64,000 nucleotides of DNA from Phallusia mammillata (Eukaryota), in contig OZ281501.1 of NCBI GenBank assembly GCA_965637545.1, positions 8,990,001 through 9,054,000 on the forward strand, given 5' to 3'. The position numbers were made by a program. Below, one piece after another: positions 6,001-27,000 of the stretch (positions within the stretch are counted from its first letter, which is position 1; every line of letters begins with the position of its first letter).

Positions 6001-9000
6001 GAAGTTAGACAATGCTGGACGTTGTGTAAAGGCAGAAGATTGCCCATGTTACTCACCAAATGGAGTTCTGATTCCTCCAGGTAGTACTATAGTTGAAGAG
6101 GGCCAGGAATGTCTATGTTTTGGAAACACCCTAGAGTGTTCATCCGTTTCTACAACAATCAGCACTGTGGTAGGCAAATTTTCTTTTTTAGGTTTGTAAA
6201 ATTCTTTTAAAACTACAAAGTTTTGGGTACCTTTGTAAAAACAAATTTAAATCCACAAACAGTTCTAGTTTCATAAACATATATTGCAACATACCAATAT
6301 AATGTTTTAATTTTATGCCAGTAAGTTCTGCTTTTCTGATTTAATTACAAAAAAACAAGAACAGTGTCTTGTAGGCTGAAACAACTGCAACTACTGAAGC
6401 AGAGGTAACAACAATGTATGATGATTGTGTGTGGTGGGCCGACTGGCACAATATACGTTCACCAAGCAATGAAGCAGGTGATGATGAAGAGGGAGTTTCA
6501 GAACACACTGCAGTATCCGACTGCAAGTCACCTGTTGCAATTGAGTGCAGAGTTGCAGGATATGGTATTTCGTACCTTAGGTAAGTATTCTTTAATGTGT
6601 TGTTTCTTTTACCAGAGAAGTAGGCTAAAATAATTTGGTGTTTCTTTTTTGTTAGTATTGCATTGTCGTTGTGCTAAATTTCTCATAAGCTGGAGTTAAG
6701 TTGAACTTATGCATGTACAATGTATTCTATTGGCAGTTATCTGTTGTGTTTTTAATGTTTTAATATCACCATATTGTTTTTTTTAGATCTGGACAGAACG
6801 GTGTCCTTTGTGATCTCAAACATGGCCTGCAGTGCATTGGATTAAGGTTGTCAGGCAATATACCTAAGTGTTATGATTATGAAGTACGACTTGGATGTTA
6901 CAATGAGAGTTGCATTGTTACTACAGCTGCCACAACTCTTGGTGTCTCCAGCTCAACACCAGATGAAACCACGACAGCAAAAGTAGGCTGTAAAAGAAAT
7001 CTGCACATTTTTCATTTTTAACAAACTGATTGATTTACAGGTGACAACAGAACAAACAACTGAAACAATTAATCCATGCCCTAACTCTACAATTACCACC
7101 CCATGTCATGGATGTATGGTCAATGAATATTGCCACAATGGTGAATGCATCACAGTGGACAAATGCCCATGCATGATTGATGGAATAGCTCATGAGGCAT
7201 GTCATTTTTATGTCTATATTCTTTAATCTTTAGAACTTAAAATTAGTAAAGCTTGAGTCTTTTAGGTAATGTCCATACCAATTTTTTGACAAATGTTTTA
7301 CAGTTTTTGATTTTGATAGCTAGATTGAGTGATGACGTTGCCTTATTATTTATGTCTATTGTTATACCCTTACAAGTAAAGTACAAGTTAAGTACCAGCA
7401 CACATCAAATGAAAACTGCTACCTAACATTTTTCATTTTTAAACTACAAGTTTTGGCCCATATATTTTTACTCTGATAACGAAAAGAAAACTTTTTGAGT
7501 GTTTATTTCAGTGTTCAATTATTCGAAATATTGTGAAATTTATACAAGTGGGCTTTACAATCTCACTATTGTTTGGCCCATTCATTTCCTCACAACAATT
7601 TACCGTACCAGACTGGCATCTGCTGAAATGCACCTGCCAACCTTTCACTTCAGACAATCACTAGTATACTCATCATTAGGTCACCAAACAACAGAACTTT
7701 TTTTACTGATCTGGATTTCTTAAATACTGAAAAAATGTGCTTTTGTATGTTAAATCTAATTTGTTCTAAAAAAAATTTGTTTTTTAGGTCAACAGTATTT
7801 GGAAAAATTCTGCTCCATTATGCACCATATGTACCTGTTTTAACAATGTTGCACAGTGTGCACCACAGACATGTAACATCACTAGTGCAGACTGTTTATT
7901 TTCTGAAACATACAGCAAATCAGAAAATGAGTGTTGTGGCACGTGCAACTGTGCATGCATTGATGGAGAAAGAAGATGTGGATATGAAGGATGCGACTGT
8001 ATACCAAATGAATGGTGGTGTGATGGTTCGATAGACTGTCCAGATGGTTCTGATGAAAACCAGTGCTTTGAAACAACTCAACAACCAGTCAAAACAACCA
8101 AGATAACAGGGTGTGAAATTGATGGAGTGCATGTCGATGTTGGTGAGGAGTTAGTTAGTGACGTTTGCCACACAGCCGTTTGCATCAAAACCGGTGTGTT
8201 TGAGAAACGATATACTTGTCCCACGACCCAAAGCACCAAACCAATGGAAACAACCAAAGCCACCAAAACTACAACTGAAGAGCCTGGTTGCATGTACAAC
8301 GGCGTGCAGGTTGCTGTCGGAGTTGTTGTCGAAAACGGAACTTGTTACAAAGTTGTTTGCTATCACGACCGTGTTTTCAGGAAAGAGAGTACCTGCACAA
8401 CTCCACATAGTGTCAGTGACACAACTACACTTGGCACAACTGAAAATGTAGAAACAACCACTCGTGCTATTTCAGGCTGTTTGGTCGACGACGTGCTTCA
8501 TATGGATGTCGGAGCAGAAGTTGTTATCGACGCTTGCAACATTGCCATATGTATCAATGATGGTTTATACGAAATACGATACACGTGCAAAACACCGGAC
8601 ACCACTCCGATTACGGAAACGACCACCATTGAGAACGGATGCATCCACGACGGAGTACAGATTGCTGTTGGTGTTGTGATCGAGAATGGTACTTGTTACA
8701 AAGTGGTTTGCTACCACAACAATGTATTGAGAAACGAGACCACATGTACTACTCCACCTCAAACATCCACAGAACCGGATACAACGGCCATCACTGGTTG
8801 CGAAATCGATGGAGAGCATGTCGACGTTGGTGATGAGTTGGTTACTGACGATTGCCACACAGCCGTTTGTATTAAAAACGGTGTGTTCGAGATACGATAT
8901 ACTTGTCCCACGCCTGAAAGCACGAAACCAATGGAAACAACCAAAGCTACCGAAACTACAACTAAAGAGCCTGGTTGCATGTACAACGGCGTGCAGGTTG

Positions 9001-24000: not shown

Positions 24001-27000
24001 TACGATATACTTGTCCCACGACCGAAAGCACCAAACCCATTGAAACAACCGAAGCCACTGAAACTACAACTAAAGAGCCTGGTTGCATGTACAACGGCGT
24101 GCAGGTTGCTGTCGGAGTTGTTGTGGAAAACGGAACTTGTTACAAAGTTGTTTGCTATCACGACCGTGTTTTCAGGAAAGAGAGTACCTGCACAACTCCA
24201 CATAGTGTCAGTGACACAACTACACTTGGCACAACTGAAACTGTAGAAACAACCACTCGTGCTATTTCAGGCTGTTTGGTCGACGGCGTGCTTCATATGG
24301 ATGTCGGAGCAGAAGTTGTTATCGACGCTTGCAACATTGCCATATGTATCAATGATGGTTTATACGAAATACGATACACGTGCAAAACACCAGACACCAC
24401 TCAGATTACAGAAACGACCACCATTGAGAACGGATGTATCCACGACGGAGTACAGATTGCTGTTGGTGTTGTGATCGAGAATGGTACATGTTATAAAGTG
24501 GTTTGCTACCACAACAATGTATTGAGAAACGAGACCACATGTACTACTCCACATCCGGGAACATCCACAGAATCGACTCCAACGGCCATCACTGGTTGCG
24601 AAATCGATGGAGAGCATGTCGACGTTGGTGATGAGTTGGTTACTGACGATTGCCACACAGCTGTTTGTATTAAAAACGGTGTGTTCGAGATACGATATAC
24701 TTGTCCCACGCCTGTAACCACGAAACCGATAAAAACAACCGAATCCACAGAGGTCACGGACACAACTGAAACTATAACTAAAGAGCCTGGTTGCATGTAC
24801 AACGGCGTGCAGGTTGCTGTCGGAGTTGTTGTGGAAAACGGAACTTGTTACAAAGTGATTTGTTTTAGGGATTATGTAATTAGAAATGAAACGACCTGCA
24901 CAACTGCATCTGTTTTGTCTTCTTCTACCACCCCTGCTGTTGGTACTACAACATCATCTCATACATCTGGTTGTATTTTCGAAAAATCGTACTACCCAGT
25001 CGGTGGAGTTCATGCGTTGGATGATGTATGCATGCTTTTATCGTTATTTCTAGCAAATGTGTTTTTTCTGATTATAATGTGTTTTAGGGTTGTGGTTCAT
25101 GCGAGTGTTTGGGAAGTGGAAAATGGAGTTGCAATACTGAAACTTGTGATCGAGAATGCATCATGTTTTCTGGCGATAGTTTCCGCACTTTTGATGGTTT
25201 AACCTTTTCCTATGATATTTGCTCTAACATCTTGGTGAAGGACTGCTATGGTCACGAATTTGAAGTGATAGGTAAGTTTCGTATTGTAGCTGTAGTCTAC
25301 TGAATTCACTGACCGGTTCATTGTTTTCGCAATTTGATGAATTCTCAAACTCGTGCTTTCAGTGTCTTTGGATTGCACATATATTCGTGGAAAACAACAT
25401 TGCAGAAAGTACTTGGATATAACCGTTGGATCTTTCAACATCATTTTGCCAAGTCGTCTTTACCTTCGCATAAATGGCCAAGCTTACCGCCTGCGATATC
25501 TCCCAAAAATTAACGGCTTGTTTAAATCCTTTGGGTGAGTGTTGGAAAATGTCAAGTACTAACAATTCTTAACTTTACAATGTTTGGATATAAAGGGAGA
25601 ATATAAGCATTGAATATGCTGGAGGCGAGATAATAGTCAGGACCGATCATTTCTACATCATGTGGAATCCAAAAACGCAACATGCAAGAAGTGTTGTTGA
25701 CGATACTTTGGCAGGTACTGAACTTCTTAGACTTACGTCAGTTATGATACACGTATTTTTTAATGTGAAGTGGTGGAGAGAAATAATATTTTTAGAATGT
25801 TATTTTATGATGTACCAAACGTTACATTACAGGTAAAACCTGTGGTTTGTGTTCGAATGATGATAGTAACCTGGAAGATGAACTTGAAATGCCTAACAAA
25901 CAGCTGGCTGAAACTGTTGACCAATTCGCGGACTCGTGGGCAGTTGCAGGTGAATCATGCGATGAACTACCAACTTGCACCGAGGAACAGCGGCTTCAGG
26001 CATTTGAATCCTGCAACCAACTAAGGTTATTTTTGGAAAAAACGTATTTTTTATTATTGTGGGATTGGCAAACATTCTTCTTGTCATACATTTGCCATTA
26101 ATTTTTTTTAAGTGGAACATTCTAGCATCTTTTCATGCATTCAAGTACGGGGATAATTTTAAGGTGAGTTACGCTCAACATTATTTCTTTCCAGAAACGC
26201 CGTGTTCTCTGATTGTGACACAGTTCTTCCTGTGGACGAGTTTTTACCGGCTTGCATGGCGTCATTTTGCGAGTGTAGCACCAACTCGTCCATGGATAAC
26301 GAACAGTGTCAGTGTGCTGTATTGGCCCAGTATGTAGAATCGTGCCAGCGACGCCTGGGAAAAGCAGTTGATAAATCATGGAGATATGATTTGGAATGTG
26401 GTAAGAATTCACTTGTGTGAGATAATGTTTTACTGTATTACCTAAATTTATAAACTGTCCGACGGCTTTTGTATGGTACATTTATGCTGTGACTGTGAGA
26501 CACCCTAAAATGGATTTAATTCAGTGGTCAGGGCACATCCTCGAATTTTATTTAGTGGTAACAGCAATGATGATTTTATGTGGCATGTTGTTGTATAGAG
26601 CCGCCATGTCCAGGCGGAGAGATTTGGCACGAATGCCATTCTGCTTGCCCAACCACCTGCCAGAACATGATGACTAGCACCCGCTATGAGATTGAACAAA
26701 ATTGCCAACCAGAATGCGTTTCTGGGTGCTTTTGCCCGGAGGGAGAAGTTTTGGATGGTGATGTGTGTAAAAAACCTGAAGAGTGCGATGAGTGTAAGCA
26801 AGAAGTGAATTAGTTGCCTTCTAACATATAATTTTGTATTTCGGCGAATGTATGCGTCTATTCAAGAAAAAAATAGTTGAATTTTTCCCTTTTAGGCACT
26901 TGCATCGGTTGGGGCGATCCTCATTACATGACTTACGACGAAAGGTATTTCCCCTTCCAAGGAAATTGCACCTATGTGTTGTCGAAACCGATTGAAGGAG

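What the first reader, a model, noticed from the sequence alone, without database searches (positions are those of the whole stretch)
8109..24899. Three-level higher-order repeat: module, A-B dimer, A-B-A'-B' tetramer, then x24
Seen: modules 1 and 3 are paralogous (22/38 identical by hand alignment) and modules 2 and 4 are paralogous (27/37). The tetramer copies are nearly identical at DNA level. The final half-unit ends in a hybrid module (B-like start, unique YKVICFRDYVI, B'-like NETTC). Inference: successive duplications of increasing size, like centromeric higher-order repeats but in coding DNA, with a relic of the ancestral dimer at the 3' edge.
Basis: partly seen in the sequence, partly recalled or inferred. 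Interest (0 to 1): 0.65.

Follow-up and report, generated by a model that had tools for sequence, protein, structure and literature searches.

The report
Nested repeat array in mucin exon
One giant exon of an invertebrate-type mucus or clot protein gene encodes 98 tiny cysteine-knotted beads joined by sugar-carrying linkers, built as a four-bead unit copied about 24 times; this is a clean but not unprecedented case of nested repeats in coding DNA.

Summary
Window 8109-24899 (+) holds 98 four-cysteine modules in one open frame, arranged as 24 units of 684-690 nt plus a half unit.

- **Hierarchy.** Units U02-U24 differ from each other by 0-21 positions. Inside a unit the four modules share only 47-73% of bases. 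A tree of all 98 modules splits {A,A'} from {B,B',terminal} with support 100/99.
- **Age.** Synonymous sites between A/A' and B/B' are saturated, so the tetramer is old. The near-identity of its copies is recent amplification or ongoing in-register homogenisation.
- **Edges.** Both edges are diverged. The terminal module is a chimera: its first 68 nt are identical to B, and its last 43 nt carry 18 differences and are equally far from B and B'.
- **Context.** The array is most of a 17,238-nt exon (7788-25025). The gene is a hemolectin / gel-forming-mucin type with CysD, F5/8C, VWC and LDLa upstream and VWD-C8-TIL x2, VWC and a cystine knot downstream.
- **Module fold.** The module matches no Pfam family. 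Its model (pLDDT 91.5) most resembles the N-terminal half of VWC and the E modules of VWF and mucins, without statistical significance.

Verdict: real and ordinary in kind, comparable to a mucin super-repeat. No orthologues could be searched.

The parts
7788..25025 (+). Giant exon, 17,238 nt = 5,746 codons, phase 0 at both ends
   Evidence: Acceptor AG at 7786-7787 after a T-rich tract. Donor GT at 25026-27 and next acceptor AG at 25086-87. One stop-free frame 7788-25199.
7788..8108 (+). Start of the giant exon: C-terminal part of a VWC domain followed by an LDL-receptor class A module
   Evidence: Pfam VWC E 1e-5 (26.2 bits, cut-off 27.6). Ldl_recept_a E 2.9e-5, 24.6 bits, above cut-off 24.1.
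8109..8277 (+). Diverged 5' edge of the array: first A module and most of the first A-to-B linker
   Evidence: 23 of the 30 differences between unit 1 and the unit consensus (first 640 nt compared) lie in 8109-8277. Only 7 lie in 8278-8748.
8278..24710 (+). Homogenised core of the array (rest of unit 1, units 2-24, A module of the half unit)
   Evidence: Units U02-U24 differ pairwise by 0-21 positions. The A module of the half unit has 1 difference from the consensus.
8796..24593 (+). 23 full A-B-A'-B' units (U02-U24) of 684 or 690 nt. Unit U13 (16362-17051) was used as reference: A 16362-16472, B 16539-16649, A' 16728-16841, B' 16890-17000
24594..24899 (+). Terminal half unit (A, long linker, chimeric B-type module)
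24711..24775 (+). Diverged A-to-B linker of the half unit, with an 18-nt in-frame insert
24776..24856 (+). Island identical to the unit consensus (end of linker plus the first 68 nt of the terminal module)
   Evidence: 0 of 68 differences from B, against 18 of 43 in the rest of the module; Fisher p 2.6e-9.
24857..24899 (+). Old remnant: last 43 nt of the terminal module
   Evidence: 18 differences from B and 17 from B'; B and B' differ by 13. Sites where B=B' but the remnant differs: 9; remnant=B only: 4; remnant=B' only: 5.
24900..25025 (+). Unique Ser/Thr-rich tail, then from 24968 the first half of a further module-like element that is cut by the intron
   Evidence: Translation; splice sites. 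The two exons were only read side by side, not joined.
25088..25271 (+). Next exon: Cys-rich start, then the beginning of a VWD domain
   Evidence: Pfam VWD E 1.5e-4 (22.6 bits, cut-off 22.9). Donor GT at 25272.
1499..1939 (+). Conventional mucin-type tandem repeat in an upstream exon of the same gene: 39 nt x 11.3, a 13-residue Thr/Pro/Ser-rich repeat
2338..7018 (+). Upstream exons with CysD (Mucin2_WxxW) pieces (2338-2742, 3068-3334, 4307-4558, 6764-7018), an F5/8 type C piece (5100-5423) and a TILa-like piece (5951-6196)
   Evidence: Pfam E 5e-12, 6.2e-14, 8e-5 and 3.8e-5 for Mucin2_WxxW, 4.3e-8 for F5/8C, and 0.0075 (below cut-off) for TILa.
25811..32711 (+). Downstream exons: C8, TIL, VWD, C8, TIL, VWC-like, cystine-knot end
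   Evidence: Pfam: C8 4.9e-12 and 2e-13; TIL 1.2e-10 and 1.9e-9; VWD 2e-17; VWC 4.1e-4 (below cut-off); Cys_knot 4.7e-4 and 1.4e-3 (below cut-off); DAN 3.4e-5 (24.2 bits, cut-off 22).

Best explanation
The region is the central, mucin-like part of a large secreted glycoprotein gene of the hemolectin / gel-forming-mucin kind. It is encoded almost wholly by one 17.2-kb exon.

**What it encodes**
- 98 small four-cysteine, all-beta modules of 37-38 residues alternate with 97 Thr/Pro/Glu-rich linkers of 16-28 residues that are likely O-glycosylated. The result is a 'beads on a glycosylated string' rod.
- Its length is set by repeat number.
- By analogy with the family, the flanking VWD-C8-TIL assemblies and the C-terminal cystine knot would polymerise the protein.

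**How it evolved (inferred order)**
1. A single module duplicated into two types, A and B (about 30-35% identical in protein).
2. The A-B pair duplicated into A-B-A'-B'. This is old, because synonymous sites between A/A' and B/B' are saturated while the proteins stay 59% and 73% identical under purifying selection.
3. The tetramer was amplified to about 24 copies. It is kept nearly identical by in-register unequal exchange and gene conversion.

**Why the tetramer is the unit.** The half units are too different (66-73% in the modules) to recombine with each other, so the tetramer is the unit of exchange. Array edges escape homogenisation and keep older sequence.

**Shown versus inferred**
- Shown: anatomy, hierarchy, edges, selection signature, gene context.
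- Inferred: secretion, glycosylation, disulfide pattern, polymer function, mechanism of homogenisation.

**Likely benefit of the four-module unit (inference).** Every module has neighbours only 30-35% identical to it, while DNA-level copy number can still change quickly.
For: - **Anatomy and counts:**
- **Coding.**
  - Only one frame is open across the array, and splice signals flank it.
  - All length differences between units are multiples of three: 6 nt, 3 nt and 18 nt.
  - Among U02-U24 the modules have 10 variable columns of 447, of which 9 are synonymous and 1 is Ile/Val.
  - The linkers have 27 of 261, of which 18 columns exist only because of the insert in the half unit. Fisher p 5.6e-6.
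- **Hierarchy:** tree split 100/99; autocorrelation peaks at about 170, about 345 and 684-690 nt.
- **Old tetramer:**

| Pair | pS | pN |
|---|---|---|
| A-A' | 0.87 | 0.20 |
| B-B' | 0.78 | 0.13 |

- **Homogenisation with exchange.** U08=U10=U15 and U12=U14 are identical. Units U02, U03, U05 and U09 form a separate variant group. 43 of 78 site-pattern pairs show all four combinations.
- **Edges:**
- **Linker composition:** Thr 41.3%, Pro 11.5%, Ser 6.1% and Glu 12.1% of 1,947 residues. There are three N-x-S/T sequons per unit.
- **Gene context:**
  - Passages of Lang et al. 2016 (PMC4948705) describe insect hemolectin as three VWD-C8-TIL units, F5_F8_type_C domains and two more units.
- **Module fold.**
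  - AlphaFold2 on an 8-row alignment of the window's own modules gives mean pLDDT 91.5 and five strands.
  - The best PDB matches are VWF D'D3, CCN3 and collagen IIA VWC, and MUC2/MUC5AC/MUC5B D assemblies, with TM 0.54-0.70 on the query.
- **Neighbour identities:** A-B 13/37, B-A' 12/37, A'-B' 11/37, B'-A 13/37.
- **Neighbour-divergence principle:** divergent neighbouring domains limit stable misfolding (Borgia et al. 2015, PMC4660218; abstract and passages).
Against: - The exon model, copy number and conservation therefore rest on this one sequence.
- **Dimer step.** It is not backed by linker similarity.
- **Fold.**
  - No Foldseek match has E <= 0.001 (52 matches at E <= 10; best 0.7).
  - The five models range from pLDDT 91.5 down to 52.1.
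  - The whole tetramer folded alone gave pLDDT 46.
  - Pfam VWC reaches only 17.3 bits on a unit against a cut-off of 27.6, and nothing on single modules.
  - Profile comparison with the gene's own VWC/TILa-like exons found nothing (probability 0.5%).
- **Gene family.** The N-terminal part of the gene lies outside the window, so the full '3+2' architecture is unseen.
- **Recent history.** A recent single amplification followed by a few mutations cannot be fully separated from ongoing homogenisation.
Confidence: 0.8

Rival explanations
1. One recent burst of amplification (for example replication slippage or rolling-type duplication of a single tetramer) made the 24 copies. The few differences are later point mutations, with no continuing exchange.
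For: Very low divergence in the middle of the array: U07, U08, U10 and U15-U19 differ by 0-3 positions. There is no clear rise of divergence with distance at short lags (mean 6.6 differences at lag 1, 6.4 at lag 3).
Against: Variants are shared in mosaic fashion: 43 of 78 pattern pairs have all four combinations. Identical units are separated by different ones (U08, U10, U15). A distinct variant group (U02, U03, U05, U09) is interleaved with others. An 81-nt island identical to the consensus sits between diverged sequence at the 3' edge, which looks like a conversion patch.
Confidence: 0.15
2. The array, or its copy number, is an assembly artefact (over-expansion or collapse of a repeat).
For: Near-identical 690-nt units over 16.6 kb are hard to assemble. 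No read data could be examined.
Against: There is no N in the window. Both flanks are unique and join in frame to real domains. Units carry structured, frame-preserving variants rather than random errors. The existence of the array is therefore not in doubt; only the exact number of units is.
Confidence: 0.05
3. The terminal module is a recent recombinant between a B and a B' module, not an old remnant.
For: At protein level its end reads like B' (last six residues identical to B').
Against: At DNA level the last 43 nt differ from B' at 17 positions and from B at 18, including third positions of the shared residues. A recent B' donor would be nearly identical.
Confidence: 0.05
4. The two module types persist because A-type and B-type modules bind each other, in cis or between chains, and so cross-link the polymer.
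For: Only indirect. Both types are kept under purifying selection over a time long enough to saturate synonymous sites, and they strictly alternate.
Against: Nothing was found that bears directly on binding. Alternation is equally explained by descent from one dimer and by avoidance of identical neighbours.
Confidence: 0.1

Closest known systems
Super-repeats in the central exon of vertebrate gel-forming mucins (MUC5B, MUC5AC)
   Same: One very large exon. Cys-containing domains alternate with Thr/Ser/Pro-rich stretches. Composite blocks are repeated with nearly identical copies: six nearly identical CysD domains delimit repeat groups in MUC5AC (PMC9712336, passages). The MUC5B 'super-repeat' is in the title of Desseyn et al. 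1997, seen only as a reference entry in PMC10983947; that paper was not read.
   Different: Here the Cys domain is a 37-residue four-Cys module, not the roughly 100-residue CysD. The linkers are short (16-28 residues) and not themselves tandem repeats. The unit has four modules of two old types. The copy number of the composite unit (24.5) is far higher.
Hemolectin / hemocytin-type '3+2 VWD' proteins of protostomes
   Same: F5/8 type C and CysD domains sit in the middle, two VWD-C8-TIL units lie downstream, and there is a C-terminal cystine knot (Lang et al. 2016, PMC4948705, passages). A limpet pedal-mucus protein with vWFD, C8, TIL and LDLa domains is listed as similar to SCO-spondin, hemolectin/hemocytin and mucin (PMC7333891, table passage).
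   Different: Those passages mention only very small PTS domains for some insect proteins. A 5,600-residue array of four-Cys modules is not mentioned in what I read. The supplementary architecture figures could not be opened.
Alpha-satellite-type higher-order repeats
   Same: Diverged monomers inside a unit, nearly identical units, in-register homogenisation, and older copies at the array edges. The description of satellite higher-order repeats is from general knowledge.
   Different: This array is an open reading frame under purifying selection, inside a gene, with monomer boundaries that are protein-domain boundaries.
VWC domain N-terminal subdomain, and the E (TILa) modules of VWF and mucin D assemblies / fibronectin type I fold
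   Same: A short hairpin plus a three-stranded sheet held by disulfides. Of the first ten Foldseek hits, eight are VWF D'D3, VWC or MUC2/MUC5AC structures, with TM on the query 0.54-0.70 and rmsd 1.8-2.9 A over 32-37 columns. Pfam aligns module B' to VWC profile positions 1-38 of 57.
   Different: Four cysteines instead of ten. No CxxCxC or CCxxC motifs. Scores are below every curated or statistical threshold.
Other coding arrays that grow by multi-domain units or evolve in concert
   Same: Repeat units spanning several domains and/or nearly identical tandem domain copies. Concerted evolution of metazoan domain repeats is documented but rare (Schueler and Bornberg-Bauer 2016, PMC5100051, passages). 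Bacterial 'periscope' proteins have variable numbers of near-identical domains (PMC8201768, abstract in listing only). Nebulin super-repeats, FCGBP triplet units, Olduvai triplets, spider-silk ensemble repeats and Balbiani-ring genes are recalled, not checked. My search for Balbiani-ring papers found nothing relevant.
   Different: Different domains and biology. None is a relative by sequence.

Membership tests
Gel-forming mucin / hemolectin-type VWD protein | Several VWD-C8-TIL units | tested here: met
   Two units lie downstream of the array: VWD 1.5e-4 and 2e-17, C8 4.9e-12 and 2e-13, TIL 1.2e-10 and 1.9e-9. The three N-terminal units expected for a '3+2' protein would lie upstream of the window and were not seen.
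Gel-forming mucin / hemolectin-type VWD protein | Pro/Thr/Ser-rich (PTS) region | tested here: met
   Linkers are Thr 41.3%, Pro 11.5% and Ser 6.1% of 1,947 residues. A separate 13-residue Thr-rich tandem repeat lies at 1499-1939. Glycosylation itself was not tested.
Gel-forming mucin / hemolectin-type VWD protein | C-terminal cystine knot | tested here: inconclusive
   Cys_knot E 4.7e-4 and 1.4e-3, both below the 24-bit cut-off. DAN scores 24.2 bits, above its 22-bit cut-off. The exons were scanned singly.
Gel-forming mucin / hemolectin-type VWD protein | F5/8 type C and CysD domains between the VWD blocks (protostome form, Lang et al. 2016) | tested here: met
   F5_F8_type_C E 4.3e-8. Mucin2_WxxW on 4 exon pieces, E 6.2e-14 to 8e-5.
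VWC domain (PF00093) | Profile match above the curated score; ten cysteines with CxxCxC and CCxxC motifs (motifs recalled) | tested here: not met
   Single modules give no hit (0 of 4). One unit scores 17.3 bits against a cut-off of 27.6. The module has four cysteines.
VWC N-terminal subdomain / E module / fibronectin type I fold | Structural match | tested here: inconclusive
   The top Foldseek hits are of this kind (TM on the query 0.54-0.70), but 0 of 52 matches have E <= 0.001. Fn1_2 Pfam E 0.16. PDB sequence search found nothing relevant. Disulfide pairing could not be read from the model.
CysD (Mucin2_WxxW), the usual Cys domain inside mucin PTS regions | Profile match | tested here: not met
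   No Mucin2_WxxW hit on modules or on a unit at E <= 10, although the same profile finds the upstream exons.
Higher-order repeat (as defined for satellite DNA) | Monomers within a unit clearly diverged | tested here: met
   52-81 of 111 bases are identical between module types.
Higher-order repeat (as defined for satellite DNA) | Units nearly identical, head to tail | tested here: met
   U02-U24 differ by 0-21 positions per roughly 690 nt. U01 differs from the others by 34-44, mostly at its 5' edge.
Higher-order repeat (as defined for satellite DNA) | Non-coding satellite, typically centromeric | tested here: not met
   The array is one open frame within an exon under purifying selection. The resemblance is therefore of form, not membership.

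The most novel reading that the evidence does not exclude
The 37-residue module may be an undescribed domain family: a 'half VWC' that kept two disulfides and lost the rest. The four-module unit may be a selected design. It would let a mucus or clot polymer change length quickly by unequal exchange of identical 690-nt DNA units. At the same time no module would ever sit next to one more than about 35% identical to itself, which would limit mis-pairing of cysteines and domain-swapped misfolding in a chain with 392 cysteines. If so, array length should be polymorphic within the species, and the A-B-A'-B' order should be conserved across related species.
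Probability: 0.25. Interest if true: 0.5.

Novelty: new member of a known kind. Interest (0 to 1): 0.3.

Why it matters
This is a very clean natural example of how a giant coding repeat is built and maintained. It shows two old duplication levels frozen under purifying selection, a young or continually homogenised top level, and array edges that preserve older sequence, including a breakpoint that can be placed to within a codon (24856/24857).

It could serve as a test case for two ideas:
- that the unit of exchange in a tandem array is set by the divergence of its sub-units;
- that neighbouring domains in long tandem proteins are kept dissimilar.

For annotation, it warns that such exons are easily mis-assembled, and that repeat summation can push unrelated Pfam models over their cut-off. 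It does not reveal a new kind of system.

Tried and rejected
- **Tandem Repeats Finder.** It missed the array because its longest period is 500.
- **Pfam on single modules.** No family was found.
- **A spurious Pfam hit.** 'Phage_YunG-like' reached 33 bits (cut-off 27) on a 500-residue stretch. It drops to 18.9 bits on one unit and 13.6 on one module, with no stretch passing on its own in the long query. I take it as summed weak hits over repeats.
- **PDB sequence search with the module profile.** Only a chance APOBEC3H hit, E 9.2.
- **ESM Atlas.** No usable hit for a unit. For module B' there was one lead at 0.77, an unnamed cluster, below the level the tool calls usable.
- **Profile comparison with the gene's own VWC/TILa-like exons.** Tested against 29638-29826, 5951-6196 and the tail 24900-25025; probability 0.5% each.
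- **AlphaFold2 of a whole tetramer without an alignment.** pLDDT 46, so not used for fold search.
- **Linker homology test.** Not significant.
- **Two-unit (1,380-nt) fourth level.**
  - U12=U14, and U11 differs from U13 by 1.
  - Mean differences are 7.05 at lag 2 and 6.64 at lag 1, so there is no general periodicity.
- **Scan of 185,579 prokaryotic genomes with one unit.** 54 pattern matches, none confirmed. An earlier attempt with the module alignment was not accepted for lack of a conserved stretch.
- **Rfam and tRNA scans of the window.** Nothing found.
- **Complex prediction of an A-type with a B-type module.** The tool gave no verdict (score 0.02, mark 0.34, controls not run). This is neither for nor against binding.
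- **Human origin.** The contig is not taken for human. It carries F5/8C, CysD and LDLa in a VWD protein with a 62-nt intron.
- **Left unchecked.**
  - The supplementary figures of Lang et al. 2016, which may already show such architectures.

Full report
**1. What is there**

The window has no N. Between 8001 and 24000 the G+C content rises to 0.455-0.464, against 0.34-0.36 in the 8 kb upstream and 0.34-0.42 downstream, with an excess of A over T on the + strand.

A single frame is open from 7788 to 25199. Splice signals bound it.
- An acceptor AG lies at 7786-7787 after a T-rich tract.
- A donor GT lies at 25026-25027, followed by a 62-nt intron whose acceptor AG is at 25086-25087.
- The exon is therefore 7788-25025: 17,238 nt, or 5,746 codons.

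**2. The observation**

They follow the strict order A, B, A', B'.

There are 24 full units, starting at 8109, 8796 ... 23904, each 684, 687 or 690 nt long. A half unit starts at 24594.

A profile of the modules finds 98 domains in this frame and nothing convincing in the other 1,480 ORFs of the window (best E 0.013).

The DNA shows all three periods by autocorrelation, against a baseline of 0.246.

| Offset (nt) | Match fraction |
|---|---|
| 684 / 690 | 0.645 / 0.593 |
| 339 / 351 / 345 | 0.39 / 0.36 / 0.34 |
| 177 / 162 | 0.37 / 0.35 |

A-type and B-type modules are alike beyond their cysteines. With the cysteines fixed, 0-17 of 5000 shuffles reach the observed score.

**3. Hierarchy and ages**

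A maximum-likelihood tree was built from all 98 module DNAs, of which 20 are distinct.
- It separates {A,A'} from {B,B',terminal} at 100/99.
- A (93/87), A' (94/87) and B' (100/100) each form one side of a branch.
- The terminal module sits weakly (68/43) between B and B'.

Divergence between module types:

| Pair | Bases identical (of 111) | pS | pN |
|---|---|---|---|
| A-A' | 73 | 0.87 | 0.20 |
| B-B' | 81 | 0.78 | 0.13 |
| A-type vs B-type | 52-61 | | |

Synonymous sites between A/A' and B/B' are saturated, so the tetramer is old and both copies of each type have been kept by selection.

By contrast, units U02-U24 differ by only 0-21 positions in about 690. U08, U10 and U15 are identical, as are U12 and U14.

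The in-register linkers (A-to-B vs A'-to-B', and B-to-A' vs B'-to-A) are not significantly alike (z 0.6 and 1.7). The dimer duplication is therefore inferred from module order and the tree alone.

**4. Selection and exchange among units**

Variable columns among U02-U24:

| Region | Variable columns | Total columns |
|---|---|---|
| Modules | 10 (9 synonymous, 1 Ile/Val) | 447 |
| Linkers | 27 | 261 |

Eighteen of the linker columns come only from the insert of the half unit. Fisher p is 5.6e-6.

All length differences are in frame: 6 nt, 3 nt and 18 nt.

Of 78 pairs of informative site patterns, 43 show all four combinations. Unit variants are interleaved: U02, U03, U05 and U09 form one group, and U07, U08, U10 and U15-U19 another.

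This mosaic fits repeated unequal exchange or conversion better than one burst, though a burst cannot be excluded. A two-unit fourth level is hinted at by U11-U14 but is not general (lag-2 mean 7.05, lag-1 mean 6.64 differences).

**5. Edges**

- **Unit 1.** It carries 23 differences from the unit consensus in 8109-8277 and 7 in the next 471 nt compared.
- **The 3' end.**
  - The A module of the half unit has 1 difference.
  - The A-to-B linker (24711-24775) is diverged and has an 18-nt insert.
  - An 81-nt island (24776-24856) then matches the consensus.
  - From 24857 the sequence is again diverged.
- **The terminal module is a chimera.** It has 0 of 68 differences from B, then 18 of 43 (Fisher p 2.6e-9).
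- **Its last 43 nt.**
  - They differ from B' at 17 positions, while B and B' differ at 13.
  - There are 9 sites where B=B' but the remnant differs, against 4 and 5 sites where it sides with one of them.
  - It is therefore not a recent B/B' recombinant.
  - It may be as old as the B/B' split, but 43 nt cannot decide this.

**6. What the protein is**

The start of the giant exon encodes the end of a VWC domain and an LDLa module.

| Position relative to the array | Domains found by Pfam |
|---|---|
| Upstream exons | 13-residue Thr-rich tandem repeat, four CysD (Mucin2_WxxW) pieces, an F5/8 type C piece |
| Downstream exons | VWD, C8, TIL, VWD, C8, TIL, VWC-like pieces, cystine-knot end |

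Passages of Lang et al. 2016 (PMC4948705) describe this arrangement.
- F5_F8 domains lie between three and two VWD-C8-TIL units in insect hemolectin.

I therefore read the gene as a hemolectin / gel-forming-mucin-type gene of a protostome-like animal, not as human. Its N-terminal part lies outside the window.

The 97 linkers are Thr 41.3%, Pro 11.5%, Ser 6.1% and Glu 12.1% of 1,947 residues. That is about 800 Thr and 120 Ser as possible O-glycosylation sites. Each unit has three N-x-S/T sequons.

**7. The module**

No Pfam family matches single modules. A unit gives VWC at 17.3 bits (cut-off 27.6), aligned to profile positions 1-38 of 57. PDB sequence search and the ESM Atlas gave nothing usable.

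AlphaFold2 on an alignment of eight of the window's own module sequences gives mean pLDDT 91.5 and five strands. The five models range from 91.5 to 52.1.

Foldseek against the PDB gives no significant E-value (best 0.7). Even so, eight of the first ten hits are VWF D'D3, CCN3 or collagen IIA VWC, or MUC2/MUC5AC assemblies, with TM on the query 0.54-0.70.

The module thus probably has the hairpin-plus-three-strand fold of the VWC N-terminal subdomain / E module / fibronectin type I. This is a resemblance of fold; membership of any of these families is not shown.

Just after the array, from 24968, the exon ends with a module-like first half, and the next exon begins with a Cys-rich stretch before the VWD domain. 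Read side by side, this looks like a fuller VWC-like element from which the four-Cys module could derive.

**8. How it most likely works**

- **Shown:** a long in-frame array of conserved small Cys modules and variable Thr-rich linkers, inside a VWD/cystine-knot protein gene.
- **Inferred from the family:** a secreted, disulfide-polymerised glycoprotein of mucus, adhesive secretion or clot. A limpet pedal-mucus protein of similar domain content is reported in PMC7333891.
- **Inferred role of the array:** it would form an extended, glycosylated rod whose length is set by unit number.
- **Inferred benefit of the four-module unit:** every module's neighbours are only 30-35% identical to it (11-13 of 37), while identical modules are about 230 residues apart. 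Divergent neighbours are thought to limit stable misfolding in tandem-domain proteins (Borgia et al. 2015, PMC4660218; abstract and passages).
- **Inferred unit of exchange:** at DNA level the half units are too different to pair, so exchange occurs in register at the tetramer period.

**9. Comparison and novelty**

Composite repeat blocks in mucin central exons are known.
- MUC5AC has six nearly identical CysD domains delimiting repeat groups (PMC9712336).
- The MUC5B 'super-repeat' was seen only as the title of Desseyn et al. 1997 in a reference list.

Concerted evolution of metazoan domain repeats is documented but rare (PMC5100051).

Nebulin, FCGBP, Olduvai, spider silk and Balbiani-ring genes are further parallels that I recall but did not check. 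My Balbiani-ring search returned nothing relevant.

My literature searches turned up no description of this module or array. They were word searches and cannot show that it is unpublished. The protein and metagenome searches that could find orthologues were closed, and supplements were closed.

I rate it a new member of a known kind, with interest 0.3.

Noticed in passing
window 1499-1939 (+), within ORF 1474-1992: A second, conventional mucin-type tandem repeat in an upstream exon of the same gene: 39 nt x 11.3 copies, 86% matches, encoding a 13-residue Thr/Pro/Ser-rich repeat. No Pfam family.
   Followed up: partly
window 8565-24203 (-): Each repeat unit carries an antisense ORF of 163-177 codons (23 listed). 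They recur once per unit and are most simply by-products of the repeated sense sequence, not genes.
   Followed up: no
window 8001-9500 (+): Pfam 'Phage_YunG-like' scores 33 bits, above its cut-off of 27, on a 500-residue stretch of the array. It scores only 18.9 bits on one unit and 13.6 on one module. This is an example of repeat summation creating a false family call.
   Followed up: yes
window 33137-40319 (-): The neighbouring gene on the opposite strand encodes a zona-pellucida-domain protein: ZP-N at 39966-40319 (E 1.3e-6) and ZP-C at 34185-34493 (E 8.3e-13). It has a hydrophobic, likely membrane-spanning stretch followed by basic residues at 33137-33337.
   Followed up: partly
window 61866-62818 (-): Two overlapping long ORFs of 171 and 167 codons. 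One matches DUF7041 (E 2.5e-8, above cut-off). This may be part of a mobile element; it was not examined further.
   Followed up: partly
window 55241-55587; 59208-59390; 60162-60328; 52571-52731: Short non-coding-looking tandem repeats: 20/40-nt units (about 9 copies), two arrays of a 75-nt unit (2.2-2.4 copies), and a 49-nt unit (3.2 copies).
   Followed up: no
window 42852-43100 (+) and 54484-54720 (+): Two ORF pieces 11 kb apart share a nearly identical Cys-rich stretch of about 30 residues, seen by eye. No Pfam family at E <= 0.01. They may be exons of duplicated genes.
   Followed up: partly
window 14982-17741 (units U11-U14): Units alternate in two variant sites: U12=U14, and U11 differs from U13 by 1. 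This hints at a local duplication of a two-unit (1,380-nt) block. It is not a general periodicity of the array.
   Followed up: yes
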